From a virus, in the IMG/VR virus record IMGVR_UViG_3300036768_001490, positions 64,001 through 128,000 of that record: 64,000 nt of DNA. One strand, 5' to 3'. The translations under genes were made by a program, and so were the position numbers. Under the pieces are notes generated by a model. The model did not search any database. It worked only from the letters and a program-made list of their open reading frames with translations, and was not told the origin of the DNA. Positions 3,042 through 58,652 of this stretch are shown one piece after another; within the stretch, counting starts at the first letter, position 1, and every line of letters begins with the position of its first letter.

Positions 3042-4079
3042 TTAGGGCAGCGGCGCCTCCTTGCGCGCGGCAGCGCCGGACTTCCGGCTGGGAGCCGGCA
3101 ACTTGTCCGGCCAGTCCTTGCCCAGGTCCGGCGCCTGCCCTCCGGCCGCGACCTGGAGCAGCTCATCATCGCGCAGCTCGGCCGCCATGCGGTCGAAGCG
3201 ACCGACCTCCGTGTCGCGGTATACCTTGTCCCCCTCGTCGCCGAAGGCCCAGGGGATCTCGTCGATCATGGCCTGGATGTGCCGCTCCGTGACTGTCCGT
3301 TGCTGCTCGCGCGACTCCTCCGAGCGCTCGAACTCGATGATGCGGGCGTGGATCTGGAACAGCTCCATCGCGTTGTACTTGTTGACCTCGAACTGGAGCG
3401 CCGCCTGCACGGAGCGCCGCCGGATGATGGCCGCCCAGGTCGCGTCCAGCCAGTTGGCCATGTCATCTGGCGACGTCAGCGGCTTGCCGACAGGCAGCGC
3501 GTGGATGAAAAAGTCAACCAGGTGCGGGCCGCCGAAGTAGGCGAACAGCTTGAGCGAGGCGTCTAGGAACGGGTGAGCCACGGTGCTGTCACGCGGCATG
3601 ACCACGCCGTCGTGGCTGACCGGCGCGGGGGCATAGTGCCGGTCGAACGCGGGCAGCAGCACCTGCTTGGTGATCCAGTCCCGCGCGTTCAGGTGCTCGA
3701 CCACGTTGAAGAACAGTGCCTCGTACCAGCGGATGGCGCCTGGCGTCGTCTTCATGACCTCGGCGATGTGCTCGAAGCTCTGTCGGGCCAGCAGGCGCGC
3801 CTCGATGAACAGGGCCCCTTCCGGCTCGCTGCTGTACCGCTCGTGGAACTCGTGCGCGTAGTACAGGTCGGGCATGTCCCAGAACAGGCGCTCGCGGTCA
3901 GCTTCGCTTTCGATGTGCTGCCAGCGCAGCTGGAACTTGCGCGCGGCCCGGATGAACTCGTCGTCGTGCCGCGTGCAGCGGCCGGGATTGGACCAGCGCA
4001 TCATGGACATGACCCGTTCCCAGCGCCAGTCTGGCCGACAGAAGAAGCTCTTCTTCTGATAGGTGGCGTTCAACTTCAT
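3042..4079 (-). CDS. Hypothetical protein
   Basis: 345 aa, globular composition, operon spacing. Confidence 0.75.
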   Translation of the reverse strand: MKLNATYQKKSFFCRPDWRWERVMSMMRWSNPGRCTRHDDEFIRAARKFQLRWQHIESEADRERLFWDMPDLYYAHEFHERYSSEPEGALFIEARLLARQSFEHIAEVMKTTPGAIRWYEALFFNVVEHLNARDWITKQVLLPAFDRHYAPAPVSHDGVVMPRDSTVAHPFLDASLKLFAYFGGPHLVDFFIHALPVGKPLTSPDDMANWLDATWAAIIRRRSVQAALQFEVNKYNAMELFQIHARIIEFERSEESREQQRTVTERHIQAMIDEIPWAFGDEGDKVYRDTEVGRFDRMAAELRDDELLQVAAGGQAPDLGKDWPDKLPAPSRKSGAAARKEAPLP

Positions 4080-49250: not shown

Positions 49251-50267
49251 CTACCACACCCTGCCGTCCACCACGCGCAGGTTCTCCACATGGAAGCCGC
49301 CGTCCCGGGAAATCTCGACGTAGGCGAAGCCGTGGTTCCAGTTGTTGAGCGGCGCATACTCCGGATGCATGTCGCACAGGCAACCCGTGGAGAAGGTGGT
49401 GATGACCCGCTGCTCCAGGTCTTTCTCGCTGTGCTCGCTGCTGTGATGGAAATGGCCGCCCAGTACATGAGTCTTGGCCCGAAGGAAGAAGCCCCGGGCC
49501 GGGTTGACCGGATTGGAAATGCGGAAGCGGTACTCATGCCCGTGGATGACGTTCAGCTTGCCCAGCTGGATCGGCCTCCGGTCGGCCACCACCTGGATGC
49601 GCTGCTTCTTTAGCCCGACTACATTGTCCCAGCTGAAGGCGGGCACGTCCAGCAGCTCCGGCGCCTTGACCCGCATGTAGCGCTCGTACCTCTCCTCGTG
49701 GTTGCCAAGCTTGTAGACGATGCGGGCCCGAGGAAACTGCCGCCGCAGGCCAGACAGGAAGTATTGCAGGCTGCACAGCTCTTCCCAGAAGTCGCGCTTG
49801 CGCGGGTCACGCTCCCAGTGACTCACCGCATAGTGGTCGGCAATGTCGCCGTTGAGCAAGAGGAAGTTCACCTTGCGCGCAGCGGCAAGGTCCAGGGCCA
49901 GACGCAGGCTGGTCTCGTTGTGATAAGGGATGTGCAGGTCAGACAAGACCAGGGCGCGCATGGGGCCCGGAAAAGACACCGCCCGCCAGGAGTCGAAGTA
50001 GGACTGGGGCGGCGGGACCACGTTCTGCCAGGGGTCGCCCGGCCGCCGCGCGGGCCGGCGGCGAGAACTGTCCCCCTGCGGCCGACGGCTGGACGCGCCC
50101 GCCTGGCCCAGACGCCGACGGACCAGCGTGCGGGCATGCTCGATGCTGTTGAACAGCTCAGGGTGCTCCCGCACCGCCTTGCGCGCCAGGGTCAGGGCCG
50201 GCGCGTCCGGGAACCGATCAAGCAGCTCATCGACCACGGCGCCGGCTGCCGTCATGCGCCTGGCCAC
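49251..50267 (-). CDS. Calcineurin-like metallophosphoesterase
   Basis: SDLHIP, GDIAD, GNHE, IHGH, GGHFH. Confidence 0.85.
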   Translation of the reverse strand: MARRMTAAGAVVDELLDRFPDAPALTLARKAVREHPELFNSIEHARTLVRRRLGQAGASSRRPQGDSSRRRPARRPGDPWQNVVPPPQSYFDSWRAVSFPGPMRALVLSDLHIPYHNETSLRLALDLAAARKVNFLLLNGDIADHYAVSHWERDPRKRDFWEELCSLQYFLSGLRRQFPRARIVYKLGNHEERYERYMRVKAPELLDVPAFSWDNVVGLKKQRIQVVADRRPIQLGKLNVIHGHEYRFRISNPVNPARGFFLRAKTHVLGGHFHHSSEHSEKDLEQRVITTFSTGCLCDMHPEYAPLNNWNHGFAYVEISRDGGFHVENLRVVDGRVW

Positions 50268-52659: not shown

Positions 52660-54345
52660 CTAAATCTCGACTGCCTTGACCATGTCCACGAACCGCTGGC
52701 TGTCGTCAGCCAGGTGCGCGGCCATGACCTCAAAGACCACGTCGCTGAAGCCGCCGATATTCAGCGTTTCGGCAGTCTCCGGGGCCTGGGAGCTGCCGCC
52801 CATCTGCAAGTCACAGCAGATGAGCTTCGGCCGCGGAAACCGACCCAACCGCCGCTGGTTGGCCACAAACTTATCCCACTCATGCACGAGTGCCGTGACA
52901 CAGTGGAACATCCTCACTGACGGCGTTACCCAGCTCTGATTGTCAGAGATCAGGATAACACCGCAGAACGCCCGATCCTTGAGTTTCTCGTTGGCGTGCG
53001 CAACCGGCAAATGGCAGTCGGTGCCGCCACCGCCGAAGCGCGAAAGCCGAGTCGAGATGCTCAGAATCTGATCGCCCGGGTCAGCGCTGAACGGACGGAC
53101 CCAGTCGCTGAATGGCACGACGACCGAGTCGGGATTCTTGCGCAGAATCGCTGCTGAGATCAGCGCCGCCACGTCGATGCACCGCATCTTCGAGGACTGC
53201 CCCGGCTTGTCACGGCGTCCCGTGATCGGCGCAAGCATGGAACCGGAGACGTCGCAGCCAATGACGACAGGGCCAGGGAACTTCGGCACCGCCTCGCACG
53301 CCACCTCCGCGGCATCGTTGAGGGCCTTGCGGATGCAGTACGGGATCTCCTCGCTGGCGTTCAGATACGCCGCGAAGAACTGGTACGGCATCTGCTTGGA
53401 CCGACGGACCTCGTTCATGTCGGCAAGACGGCTGGCCACCTCATCGACCATGCGCGGGTCCCGGAATACACCGTGGCGGTTGAGCGTATTCAGGTTCATG
53501 CGCAACGCCTGGTAGCCCATGTTCCTGGCTATCTCCGCCCACACCGGACTCGGACGGACCAGGCGCCGGGTGGCGCCACAACCCTCGTACACCTCGCCCT
53601 TGACCGCGTCCACCAGGAGATCCCAGCGGATGTAGGTCTTGGCGAACTGCCGCGCAAGCTGCACCTGCTCGTCCGGGTCCGTGGTGCCGCGGAACCGGTC
53701 GAGCAGCCGGATCTCCAGCGGGAGATCGTCGTAGGTAGCCGGCCTCCACTTCTCGACCGGATTGCCGCACAGCCAGCCATACAACGCGCGACGGGCATTG
53801 TTGGGCGGCGTCGGCCGCACCAGGCGCAGCACGTCGCGCAACGACGGGTTCTTGCCGACCGAGGCCGACAGGAGCTTGTCGTCGCTAGCGTTGTTCAGCA
53901 GCCTGGACATGACCCGCTGCTTGGCGTGGCTGAAGCACCGCTTCCTGGTGCCGGCGCCGCTGCGCACCATCTGGAAGGCCGTCAGGATCATCTTGCCACT
54001 GTCCACGACACGGTCAGCAATCCGGTCCCACAGCTTGATGTCCATATCGGCGAGCTTCGCCCAACCCGCCGCCGGGGCGTCCTTGAGCAAACCGTCCCGA
54101 CGCGCGGCAATGCACGCCTTGGCCAAGAACTCGGGCGTCACGCACGCTGCCAGCTCGTGAAACCTGGCAAGCTGCTCGGCGCCGCTCTCGTAGTACGCCC
54201 CGTTGAAGCAGGACGTGAACAGGAACTGTGCCAGGGCATGTTCGGACCCGTAAGCGTAAGCCGAGCCGCCAGCCTGATTGATGGCATCAACCGGGCGGTC
54301 AACCAGGGCGGACGAACTGGTGCCGAAGAGGGACTTGCTGGCCAC
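52660..54345 (-). CDS. rsr: Ro60/TROVE RNA-binding protein with vWA domain
   Basis: NQAGGSAY..EHALAQ, ALRMNLNTLNRHG, PYQFFAAY, CDVSGSM, ISDNQSW; AAGGAGG SD, GTG start. Confidence 0.9.
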   Translation of the reverse strand: MASKSLFGTSSSALVDRPVDAINQAGGSAYAYGSEHALAQFLFTSCFNGAYYESGAEQLARFHELAACVTPEFLAKACIAARRDGLLKDAPAAGWAKLADMDIKLWDRIADRVVDSGKMILTAFQMVRSGAGTRKRCFSHAKQRVMSRLLNNASDDKLLSASVGKNPSLRDVLRLVRPTPPNNARRALYGWLCGNPVEKWRPATYDDLPLEIRLLDRFRGTTDPDEQVQLARQFAKTYIRWDLLVDAVKGEVYEGCGATRRLVRPSPVWAEIARNMGYQALRMNLNTLNRHGVFRDPRMVDEVASRLADMNEVRRSKQMPYQFFAAYLNASEEIPYCIRKALNDAAEVACEAVPKFPGPVVIGCDVSGSMLAPITGRRDKPGQSSKMRCIDVAALISAAILRKNPDSVVVPFSDWVRPFSADPGDQILSISTRLSRFGGGGTDCHLPVAHANEKLKDRAFCGVILISDNQSWVTPSVRMFHCVTALVHEWDKFVANQRRLGRFPRPKLICCDLQMGGSSQAPETAETLNIGGFSDVVFEVMAAHLADDSQRFVDMVKAVEI

Positions 54346-54464
54346 GGTGTTGGCCTCCTTGGGTCATTGGAGTAAGCGCAGGTCGAACCCGTATCCCATC
54401 ACTGGCGGTGAGTACGCTCCACCGAGACAGTCAGATTGTTCACACAACGGGAGTCGAAGGGCGA

Positions 54465-54529
54465 ATACCGACGAGTTCTCGAAGCAGCCTTTCTATCCTC
54501 AAGATGAAAGCCGCCCCGACAGTCGGTAT
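54465..54529 (-). ncRNA. Y-RNA-like stem-loop B
   Basis: ATACCGAC/GTCGGTAT closing stem, internal loop, 12-bp G.U-rich upper stem. Confidence 0.5.
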
Positions 54530-54594
54530 GCTCCTTTCAGAATCAGACCATTCGGAGTCTCTTGATCTTCCAACTGCTGAGCCGCCGAAGGTTC

Positions 54595-54648
54595 GCCATG
54601 ACCAAGGACTCGAACCCAGAACAGAGAGATTACGGGCCCAAGAATGGC
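54595..54648 (-). ncRNA. tRNA-like module (acceptor-like stem + T-loop, no anticodon arm)
   Basis: GCCAT/ATGGC stem enclosing GGTTCGAGTCC. Confidence 0.4.
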
Positions 54649-54664
54649 AGCCAGGTTAACTGGG

Positions 54665-54725
54665 TCCCGACGAATTCGTCGCGGCAGAGAAACATTCAGC
54701 ATGTACTCCGCCACAGCAGTCGGGA
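54665..54725 (-). ncRNA. Y-RNA-like stem-loop A
   Basis: TCCCGAC/GTCGGGA closing stem, internal loop, GTGGCGGAG/CTCTGCCGC stem. Confidence 0.5.
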
Positions 54726-54737
54726 TGCCTATAAAAC

Positions 54738-54765
54738 ATGGTAGCGGGACGAGTGCCAAAATCAA
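54738..54765 (-). promoter_or_regulatory. Promoter candidate for the ncRNA-Ro60 unit
   Basis: TTGATT-16 nt-TACCAT. Confidence 0.5.
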
Positions 54766-54799
54766 GAGGTTCGCGCCAGAAATCCGGCGCGAACCTCTT
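54760..54799 (-). terminator. Terminator after 1266-aa gene
   Basis: 14-bp AAGAGGTTCGCGCC stem then GATTTT. Confidence 0.65.
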
Positions 54800-54851
54800 C
54801 TCGCCGCATGGGACAATGACTTCCTTCCGTCTGCCACGCCCGCAGCCAGCC

Positions 54852-58652
<3,801 letters not shown>

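What the first reader, a model, noticed from the sequence alone, without database searches (positions are those of the whole stretch)
54362..54765. Phage Ro60 with an upstream cluster of paralogous Y-RNA-like and tRNA-like RNAs
Seen: in the ~400 nt between a promoter and the Ro60 SD lie two same-architecture stem-loops sharing CCGACUG...GA(C)GAAYUCGUCGG with compensatory closing pairs and G.U pairs on the sense strand, a tRNA-like module with GGUUCGAGUCC, and a third degenerate unit (CUGACUGUC...GGUUCGACC). Known: bacterial Ro60 binds adjacent Y RNAs, many tRNA-mimicking (YrlA), and a few phages encode Ro60. Inference: a phage Ro60 RNP with a possibly new Y RNA class, perhaps tRNA decoys against anticodon nucleases.
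Basis: partly seen in the sequence, partly recalled or inferred. Interest (0 to 1): 0.72.

Follow-up and report, generated by a model that had tools for sequence, protein, structure and literature searches.

The report
Phage Ro60 with two Y RNAs
An uncultured 183-kb phage carries a gene for the RNA-binding ring protein Ro60 preceded by two intact small partner RNAs (Y RNAs) and the decayed remains of one or two more; this is a cut-down copy of a Ro60/Y-RNA module already known from bacteria and a few phages, so it is real but not a new class.

Summary
Upstream of an intact Ro60/TROVE-vWA gene (52660-54345, minus strand), on the same strand, lie two stem-loops with the same architecture: unit A (54665-54725) and unit B (54466-54528).

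A covariance model built only from 38 planctomycete units finds A at 34.8 bits (E 1e-7 over the window) and B at 26.1 bits (E 3e-7 locally). Nothing comparable occurs elsewhere in the phage.

The same frame occurs 268 times in 80 planctomycete Ro60 loci, always on the Ro60 strand, with strong covariation. It has the architecture of the Rfam YrlA (RF02553) stem. A and B are therefore cargo-less Y RNAs of the known bacterial and phage type, not a new class.

The "tRNA-like module" is at best a decayed YrlA-type unit: a T-arm, no significant model match, and no tRNA call. In the "third unit", the closing helix is broken, and its "GGUUCGACC" is more likely the frame's CUUCGUC motif than a T-loop.

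The promoter is unverified. The anticodon-nuclease decoy idea is unsupported, because YrlA-type modules have no anticodon loop.

This scan has found similar and larger Ro60 RNA arrays before on other DNA.

The parts
52660..54345 (-). Ro60/Rsr homologue, 561 aa, GTG start. N-terminus MASKSLF matches the family consensus MANKSLF. MIDAS residues D365, S367 and S369 are conserved.
   Evidence: Pfam vWA_Ro60 and TROVE. phrog_850 RNA-binding protein. PDB 9KOP/9L5Y phage phiLo Ro60 at 5.5e-12 and 2NVO Rsr at 2.7e-11. 50-56% identity to planctomycete Ro60 over the full length.
54354..54360 (-). Shine-Dalgarno AAGGAGG, 8 nt before the GTG start of Ro60
   Evidence: Read from the sequence.
54665..54725 (-). 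Unit A: intact cargo-less Y RNA. P1 is UCCCGAC/GUCGGGA, followed by an internal loop, P2 GUGGCGGAG/CUCUGCCGC, then UACAU and a small hairpin.
   Evidence: R1 (built from host units only): 34.8 bits, E 1.2e-7 over the whole window, all 16 model pairs standard. MFE -30.2 kcal/mol, z -4.8. It keeps all 14 invariant frame positions of A2.
54529..54656 (-). Unit M: probable decayed YrlA-type unit. The 5' half-frame CUGGCUGCC..GUAAU is recognisable. There is a T-arm with loop UUCGAGU (54606-54616 holds GGUUCGAGUCC), a D-arm-like GCUCAG..UUGG, and GUCUGAUUC resembling the P2 3' strand. The 3' closing strand is lost.
   Evidence: All evidence is weak. R1 gives 5.6 bits, E 0.23. R2 gives 7.1 bits, E 0.066 for 54603-54638 only. 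The nhmmer profile gives E 1.9, although this is the second-best hit in the window. There is no folding excess. The slot length between A and B (136 nt) equals one host full-length unit (134-143 nt).
54466..54528 (-). Unit B: intact but divergent cargo-less Y RNA. P1 is UACCGAC/GUCGGUA. P2 is kept through compensatory changes. It differs at 3 of 14 invariant frame positions (CUGU for CUGC, GC for GA, UUCAU for UACAU).
   Evidence: R1: 26.1 bits, E 3.4e-7 (651 nt, filters off), no non-standard pair. MFE -29.6 kcal/mol, z -4.5.
54378..54435 (-). Unit C: relic. The 5' half UCUGACUGUC..GGUGGAG..UAC and a P2-like hairpin remain. The 3' UUCGAC looks like the remnant of the frame's CUUCGUC, and P1 can no longer pair.
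   Evidence: R1: 0.5 bits, E 6.7. Folding z +1.5. Motif comparison by eye with the host units.
54756..54799 (-). Intrinsic-terminator-like hairpin (14-bp G+C-rich stem, then GAUUUUGG) ending the upstream 1266-aa gene. It marks the 5' limit of the Ro60/Y RNA transcription unit.
   Evidence: Fold -30.8 kcal/mol, z -5.35, 0 of 200 shuffles. Sequence.

Best explanation
The roughly 400 nt between the terminator of the upstream gene and the Ro60 start codon is a small Y RNA array co-transcribed with Ro60.

Shown:
- Two units (A and B, each about 61-63 nt) are intact members of the Y RNA 'handle' frame that flanks Ro60 genes in Planctomycetota and many phages.
- The frame is a 7-bp closing helix containing CGAC/GUCG, an asymmetric internal loop (5' UGCC, 3' ..CUUC), an 8-9-bp second helix, the YUAY-type UACAU, and a terminal hairpin.
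- This architecture matches the Ro60-binding stem of YrlA.

Inferred from M. smegmatis, D. radiodurans and Thermus phage phiLo:
- The leader is processed into discrete small RNAs.
- These RNAs dock on the outer surface of the phage Ro60 ring.
- They gate access to its central cavity and/or bridge it to a host exoribonuclease such as PNPase in a RYPER-like particle, reshaping turnover of structured RNA during infection.

A and B carry no tRNA-like or other cargo, so they more likely act as lids or regulators of Ro60 than as effector tethers.

The stretch between them (M) and the stretch before the ribosome-binding site (C) are most likely decayed former units of a longer, planctomycete-type array.
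For: - The Ro60 gene is intact and full length.
- Model R1, built only from 38 planctomycete units, finds A at 34.8 bits (E 1.2e-7 in 128 kb searched) and B at 26.1 bits. The whole 182.7-kb phage has no other good hit.
- A sequence-only profile gives A just 12-13 bits, so structure carries much of the signal.
- The frame covaries. In A2, 88% of cells are paired and 102 cells carry double changes, against 33 in shuffles (0 of 500). Slid controls collapse to 21-48% paired.
- R1 gives 268 hits in 80 planctomycete Ro60 loci, all on the Ro60 strand. A stricter motif count gives 316 units, 314 of them upstream of Ro60, with a median of 4 and a maximum of 8 per 2-kb flank.
- R1 gives 39 hits in about 28 of 81 viral Ro60 loci, all on the Ro60 strand.
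- Host long units hit Rfam YrlA at 40-43 bits, E about 1e-7. The RF02553 consensus stem has the same layout as the R1 frame.
- Cargo-less units are the commonest class in host arrays (119 of 316).
- Published precedent: Y RNAs upstream of rsr are processed from one precursor (PMC4201824). Phage phiLo Ro60 binds two upstream Yrl RNAs and host PNPase (PMC12135203).
Against: - There is no expression, processing or binding data.
- No close relative of this phage was found, so there is no covariation among orthologues of A and B themselves.
- No Rfam family reaches even E<10 in the region, including YrlA.
- The literal 5' motif GNCGAAN0-1G of Chen 2014 is replaced by CCGACUG.
- B departs from 3 of 14 positions that are invariant in the 38 host seed units.
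- M and C are statistically unsupported.
- A function as a purely cis-acting leader cannot be excluded.
Confidence: 0.8

Rival explanations
1. The structures act only in cis, as a structured 5' leader of the Ro60 mRNA. They would provide autoregulation by Ro60 binding its own leader, or stabilise the mRNA, and would not be released as separate small RNAs.
For: - The units lie between a terminator and the Ro60 Shine-Dalgarno with no terminator of their own.
- In host loci the last unit ends about 20 nt before the ribosome-binding site.
Against: - Homologous units occur in arrays of up to 8, as far as 2 kb from the start codon, and also downstream of Ro60 in some viral loci. A leader role does not explain this.
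- Characterised homologues are processed from such precursors into stable Ro60-bound RNAs (PMC4201824).
- The two roles are not mutually exclusive.
Confidence: 0.1
2. The RNA array is a decaying relic carried along with a useful Ro60 gene. All four units, including A and B, would be non-functional.
For: - Two of the four unit-sized slots (M and C) are clearly degraded.
- B departs from invariant frame positions.
- A and B score lower than most host units (26-35 bits against 40-75).
Against: - A keeps every invariant position and every pair.
- B keeps all 16 pairs through compensatory changes despite sequence divergence, which is the signature of selection on structure.
- Both fold with z below -4.5, whereas M and C do not. 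This shows what decay looks like in the same locus.
Confidence: 0.07
3. One reading: the RNAs are tRNA decoys that protect the phage from host anticodon nucleases.
For: - A T-loop sequence, GGUUCGAGUCC, sits in the array.
- Ro60 genes in relatives lie beside tRNA genes.
Against: - The intact units have no tRNA-like part.
- The T-arm-bearing stretch is not recognised as tRNA or YrlA.
- YrlA-type mimics have a closed acceptor stem and no anticodon loop (10.1101/312249), so they offer no substrate for an anticodon nuclease.
- The phage record encodes no tRNA at all.
Confidence: 0.03

Closest known systems
YrlA / YrlB Y RNAs with Rsr (Salmonella Typhimurium, Mycobacterium smegmatis; Rfam RF02553; Chen et al. 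2014, PMC4201824; 10.1101/312249)
   Same: - Encoded next to Ro60/Rsr on the same strand, with several per locus.
- The 5' and 3' ends pair into a helix / internal loop / helix module followed by a YUAY motif. Compare the RF02553 consensus with the R1 consensus.
- A cargo-less partner RNA exists beside the tRNA-like one.
   Different: - The 5' motif is CCGACUG rather than GNCGAAN0-1G.
- The two intact phage units have no T, acceptor-like or D arms.
- RF02553 does not detect anything here.
Thermus phage phiLo Ro60 with Yrl1 and Yrl2 (PMC12135203; PDB 9KOP, 9L5Y)
   Same: - A phage-encoded Ro60 with two Y-RNA-like genes immediately upstream.
- The proteins match at E 5.5e-12.
- In phiLo, binding of the RNAs and of host PNPase has been demonstrated.
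   Different: - The proteins are only distantly related (about 23% identity by tblastn).
- The phiLo RNAs were picked by a CGAA motif in the bulge. I did not compare their sequences with R1.
Planctomycete-type Ro60 loci with multi-unit Y RNA arrays (L083-L162; also viral contigs L003-L006)
   Same: - The same RNA frame (the source of model R1).
- The closest Ro60 proteins (50-56% identity).
- The phage Ro60 groups with them at SH-like support 100 in a quick FastTree.
- Arrays sit directly upstream on the same strand.
   Different: - Host arrays hold up to 8 units in 2 kb, with tRNA-like, T-arm-only and 23S-rRNA-like cargos, and real tRNA genes upstream.
- The phage keeps two cargo-less units plus relics and has no tRNA genes.
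- The phage protein branches outside the sampled planctomycete crown group, so the direction and age of any transfer are open.

Membership tests
Bacterial/phage Y RNA of the YrlA/YrlB handle type | Encoded adjacent to a Ro60/Rsr gene on the same strand | tested here: met
   A and B lie 120-380 nt upstream of the Ro60 start on the minus strand.
Bacterial/phage Y RNA of the YrlA/YrlB handle type | The 5' and 3' ends pair into a helix / internal loop / helix docking module that is conserved and covaries across the family | tested here: met
   The host-only model R1 gives 34.8 and 26.1 bits with all pairs standard. Family covariation beats all 500 shuffles.
Bacterial/phage Y RNA of the YrlA/YrlB handle type | 5' motif GNCGAAN0-1G (Chen et al. 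2014) | tested here: not met
   A regex search finds no literal match in the region. The corresponding position reads CCGACUG, as in all planctomycete units. This is a variant of the motif, not its absence.
YrlA proper (Rfam RF02553) | tRNA-like domain in the order T arm, closed acceptor-like stem, D arm | tested here: not met
   A and B have only a short hairpin as interior. M has a T-arm and a D-like stretch but is not significant: R2 gives 7.1 bits, E 0.066.
YrlA proper (Rfam RF02553) | Reaches the Rfam gathering score (69 bits) | tested here: not met
   No RF02553 match even at E<10 in 54250-54900. Host long units reach 40-43 bits.
Bacterial/phage Y RNA of the YrlA/YrlB handle type | A discrete stable small RNA physically bound by Ro60 | not testable with these tools
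   Needs RNA-seq or Northern blots and a Ro60 pull-down or gel shift.
Ro60 / Rsr (TROVE-vWA ring protein) | TROVE (HEAT-repeat) domain followed by a vWA domain with the MIDAS motif DxSxS | tested here: met
   Pfam PF05731 and PF25045 are above their cut-offs. D365, S367, S369, T442 and D468 are invariant in the 22-sequence alignment. It matches 9KOP, 2NVO and 9NEN.
tRNA | Cloverleaf recognised by tRNA finders | tested here: not met
   ARAGORN finds 0 genes in the window and 0 in the whole 182.7-kb record. Rfam tRNA has no match at E<10 in the region.

The most novel reading that the evidence does not exclude
The phage has deliberately reduced a multi-cargo Y RNA array to two cargo-less 'handle-only' RNAs. 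These would work with its own divergent Ro60 as a minimal particle. One possibility is a lid that keeps the phage Ro60 closed until needed. Another is a set of competitors that pull the host's Ro60 or PNPase away from the host's own 8-member Y RNA set, making it a takeover device rather than an RNA quality-control device.
Probability: 0.12. Interest if true: 0.55.

Novelty: new member of a known kind. Interest (0 to 1): 0.35.

Why it matters
It adds one more large uncultured phage to those that carry their own Ro60 particle. It also gives a clean natural comparison within one locus: two units kept intact by compensatory change, next to two that have decayed. That comparison marks the handle, not the tRNA-like cargo, as the part this phage needs.

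The wider value lies in the comparison set. Planctomycete Ro60 genes are preceded by conserved arrays of up to eight paralogous Y RNAs with different cargos. I could not find this described in the papers searched, although this scan has met such arrays repeatedly.

Tried and rejected
- **Rfam on the window.** Nothing at gathering thresholds on the whole window. At E<10 on the region there were only chance hits in the CAG/CTG repeat, and no Y_RNA, YrlA or tRNA match.
- **Close relatives of the phage Ro60.** None in viral contigs or metagenome contigs.
- **Synteny through neighbouring genes.** The downstream 347-aa ORF has no relatives. Fourteen viral contigs share the metallophosphoesterase but have no Ro60, no neighbouring genes in common and no R1 hit.
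- **Full-length YrlA-type model R2.** It did not rescue unit M.
- **Whole-region fold.** Not better than shuffles (z -1.1). Only the individual units A and B are.
- **Alternative pairing.** I considered A's 3' strand pairing with B's 5' strand to enclose M as one long Y RNA. I rejected it because the host-derived model supports intra-unit pairing.
- **Rfam LSU model.** It did not report the 23S-like host unit. The resemblance was shown instead by aligning the unit with that genome's own 23S gene.
- **Maximum-likelihood tree.** It did not finish in time, so a quick FastTree was used.

Full report
**Setting**

The window is bases 64001-128000 of a 182.7-kb IMG/VR virus record (CheckV completeness 84%, G+C 66%). 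It encodes phage-type functions such as a multisubunit RNA polymerase and a ribonucleotide reductase.

ORF 52660-54345 on the minus strand is a full-length Ro60 homologue:
- Pfam vWA_Ro60 (5.9e-13) and TROVE (8.7e-08).
- phrog_850.
- Matches to the solved Ro60 of Thermus phage phiLo and to Deinococcus Rsr.
- The MIDAS residues are invariant in an alignment with 21 relatives.

Its closest relatives are Ro60 proteins of Planctomycetota, at 50-56% identity over the full length. The best cultured-phage match is Myxococcus phage Mx1 at 36%.

**The observation**

Read on the minus strand, the region starts with a strong terminator hairpin of the upstream 1266-aa gene (54756-54799; z -5.35). It ends with AAGGAGG and the GTG start of Ro60.

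In between lie two stem-loops of the same design, unit A (54665-54725) and unit B (54466-54528). Each folds far better than shuffles (z -4.8 and -4.5).

This says little, because the phage has its own polymerase.

ARAGORN finds no tRNA in the window or in the whole record. Rfam finds nothing relevant even at E<10.

**What the units are**

Weak nhmmer and BLAST hits of the region fell just upstream of Ro60 in several planctomycete loci. A motif scan then showed that these loci carry arrays of units with one shared frame:
- a variable closing helix around CGAC/GUCG;
- UGCC;
- a second helix;
- GGAGUACAU;
- a variable interior;
- CUCUG..;
- ..CUUCGUCG.

I aligned 38 short units taken from planctomycete genomes only (A2). 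The two helices covary strongly. 88% of cells are paired, and 102 cells carry changes on both sides against 33 in shuffles (0 of 500). When the 3' partners are slid by 1-3 columns, pairing collapses to 21-48%.

The covariance model R1 built from this alignment had never seen the phage. It finds unit A at 34.8 bits, E 1.2e-7 over both strands of the window. It finds unit B at 26.1 bits, E 3.4e-7 in the local unfiltered search, with every model pair standard.

The opposite strand scores 5-6 bits. The rest of the phage genome has no comparable hit. A sequence-only profile gives unit A just 12-13 bits, so the structure carries much of the signal.

**Relation to known Y RNAs**

R1 finds 268 copies in the 80 planctomycete loci, all on the Ro60 strand. 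By a stricter motif count, 314 of 316 units lie upstream of Ro60, with a median of 4 and up to 8 per 2-kb flank.

R1 also finds 39 copies in about 28 of 81 viral Ro60 loci, with G+C from 0.24 to 0.63, again all on the Ro60 strand. The frame is therefore a general Ro60-associated handle.

The long host units contain a T arm, a closed stem and a D arm in the YrlA order. They hit Rfam YrlA (RF02553) at 40-43 bits, E about 1e-7. This is below the curated 69 bits because the stems align poorly.

The RF02553 consensus stem has the same layout as the R1 frame: 6-bp helix, AUGCu, 7-bp helix, CUA ... AaAcUuG. The frame's UACAU corresponds to the conserved YUAY of YrlA. CCGACUG corresponds to the GNCGAAN0-1G / GGUCCGA Ro-binding motif described by Chen et al. 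2014 (PMC4201824), with C in place of A.

A and B are thus cargo-less members of the known bacterial and phage Y RNA kind. They compare with the non-tRNA-like partner RNAs such as YrlB. Cargo-less units are also the commonest class in host arrays (119 of 316).

**The other two stretches**

*Unit M.* The 136 nt between A and B is the length of one full host unit (134-143 nt). It is colinear by eye with such a unit:
- a 5' half-frame, CUGGCUGCC..GUAAU;
- a T arm with loop UUCGAGU;
- a D-like GCUCAG..UUGG;
- GUCUGAUUC, where the 3' strand of the second helix should be.

The closing 3' strand is gone and the statistics are weak. R1 gives 5.6 bits. The full-length model R2 gives 7.1 bits, E 0.066, for the T-arm part only. 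There is no folding excess. I read it as a probably decayed YrlA-type unit, with low confidence.

*Unit C.* The stretch before the ribosome-binding site (54378-54435) keeps a 5' half-frame and a hairpin but cannot form the closing helix. R1 gives 0.5 bits and folding z is +1.5.

**Mechanism**

Shown:
- an intact Ro60 gene;
- two intact handle RNAs on its strand between a terminator and its start codon;
- membership of those RNAs in a covarying family tied to Ro60 genes.

Inferred from characterised systems:
- The leader is processed into small RNAs, as in M. smegmatis (PMC4201824).
- These RNAs bind the phage Ro60.
- They gate its cavity or couple it to a host 3'-5' exoribonuclease. This has been shown for Deinococcus RYPER and, in vitro, for phage phiLo Ro60, its Yrl RNAs and host PNPase (PMC12135203; 10.1101/312249).

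A and B lack an effector-type interior, so a lid or regulator role is the more likely one.

The anticodon-nuclease decoy idea is not supported. YrlA-type mimics have no anticodon loop (10.1101/312249), the intact units have no tRNA-like part, and the phage has no tRNA genes.

**Origin**

In a quick FastTree, the phage Ro60 groups with planctomycete Ro60 and four viral contigs, apart from 39 other viral sequences (SH-like support 100). It branches outside the sampled planctomycete crown group on a long branch, next to viral contig L006. The tool itself flags that join as possibly false.

The module is of the planctomycete type. The direction and date of transfer are not settled. No close relative of the phage carrying the module was found.

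**Verdict**

This is a real Ro60/Y RNA module and a new member of a known kind. It is smaller and partly decayed compared with the arrays in its nearest relatives.

This scan has already reported similar and larger arrays on other DNA. My independent tests of the planctomycete arrays and of the 23S-like cargo agree with those notes.

Noticed in passing
L083-L162 (e.g. L096:933-1980, L088:27-1922): Planctomycete Ro60 genes are preceded by same-strand arrays of up to 8 paralogous Y-RNA-like units, which in the loci I read by eye (e.g. L096) appear in a recurring order: two short units, a 23S-like unit, a T-arm-only unit, two full YrlA-type units, another T-arm unit, and a Ro60-proximal short unit. 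Real tRNA genes often lie further upstream. I found no paper on this. The scan has noted it before.
   Followed up: partly
L113:1130-1330, L087:1262-1470, L146:1320-1555 and 34 further loci: In 37 of 80 planctomycete loci, one array unit carries an interior of about 140 nt. It begins with a 21-nt near-copy of the genome's own 23S rRNA (..GGUCCUAAGGUAGCGA, the helix 69-71 region), followed by a shortened hairpin and GAAUGGCG. The alignment score is 45 against 21.6 +/- 3.2 for shuffles. The Rfam LSU model itself did not report the unit. This is a Y RNA with a ribosomal-RNA look-alike in place of a tRNA look-alike.
   Followed up: partly
whole record G000 (182,719 bases): ARAGORN finds no tRNA gene in this large phage record. 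In contrast, the Ro60 genes of its nearest relatives and of Myxococcus phage Mx1 sit inside tRNA gene clusters.
   Followed up: yes
L002:978-1062 and 1518-1603 (Myxococcus phage Mx1, OR576727.2): Two unannotated tRNA-like elements lie upstream of the Mx1 Ro60 gene. They score 34-37 bits against the Rfam tRNA-Sec model, below its cut-off. Another T-loop-bearing stretch lies at about 3400-3470. No R1-type handle was found in this locus.
   Followed up: no
window 54841-54960: An imperfect CTGCGG/CTGCTG repeat run forms the C-terminal end of the 1266-aa ORF 54852-58652 (minus strand). On the coding strand this reads as a Gln/Pro-rich low-complexity tail. It attracts spurious Rfam miRNA and sRNA hits.
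   Followed up: no
window 49251-50267 (-): A metallophosphoesterase (phrog_221, 3.3e-38) lies 2.4 kb downstream of Ro60. Its relatives in 14 viral contigs are not linked to Ro60, so it is probably not part of the module.
   Followed up: yes
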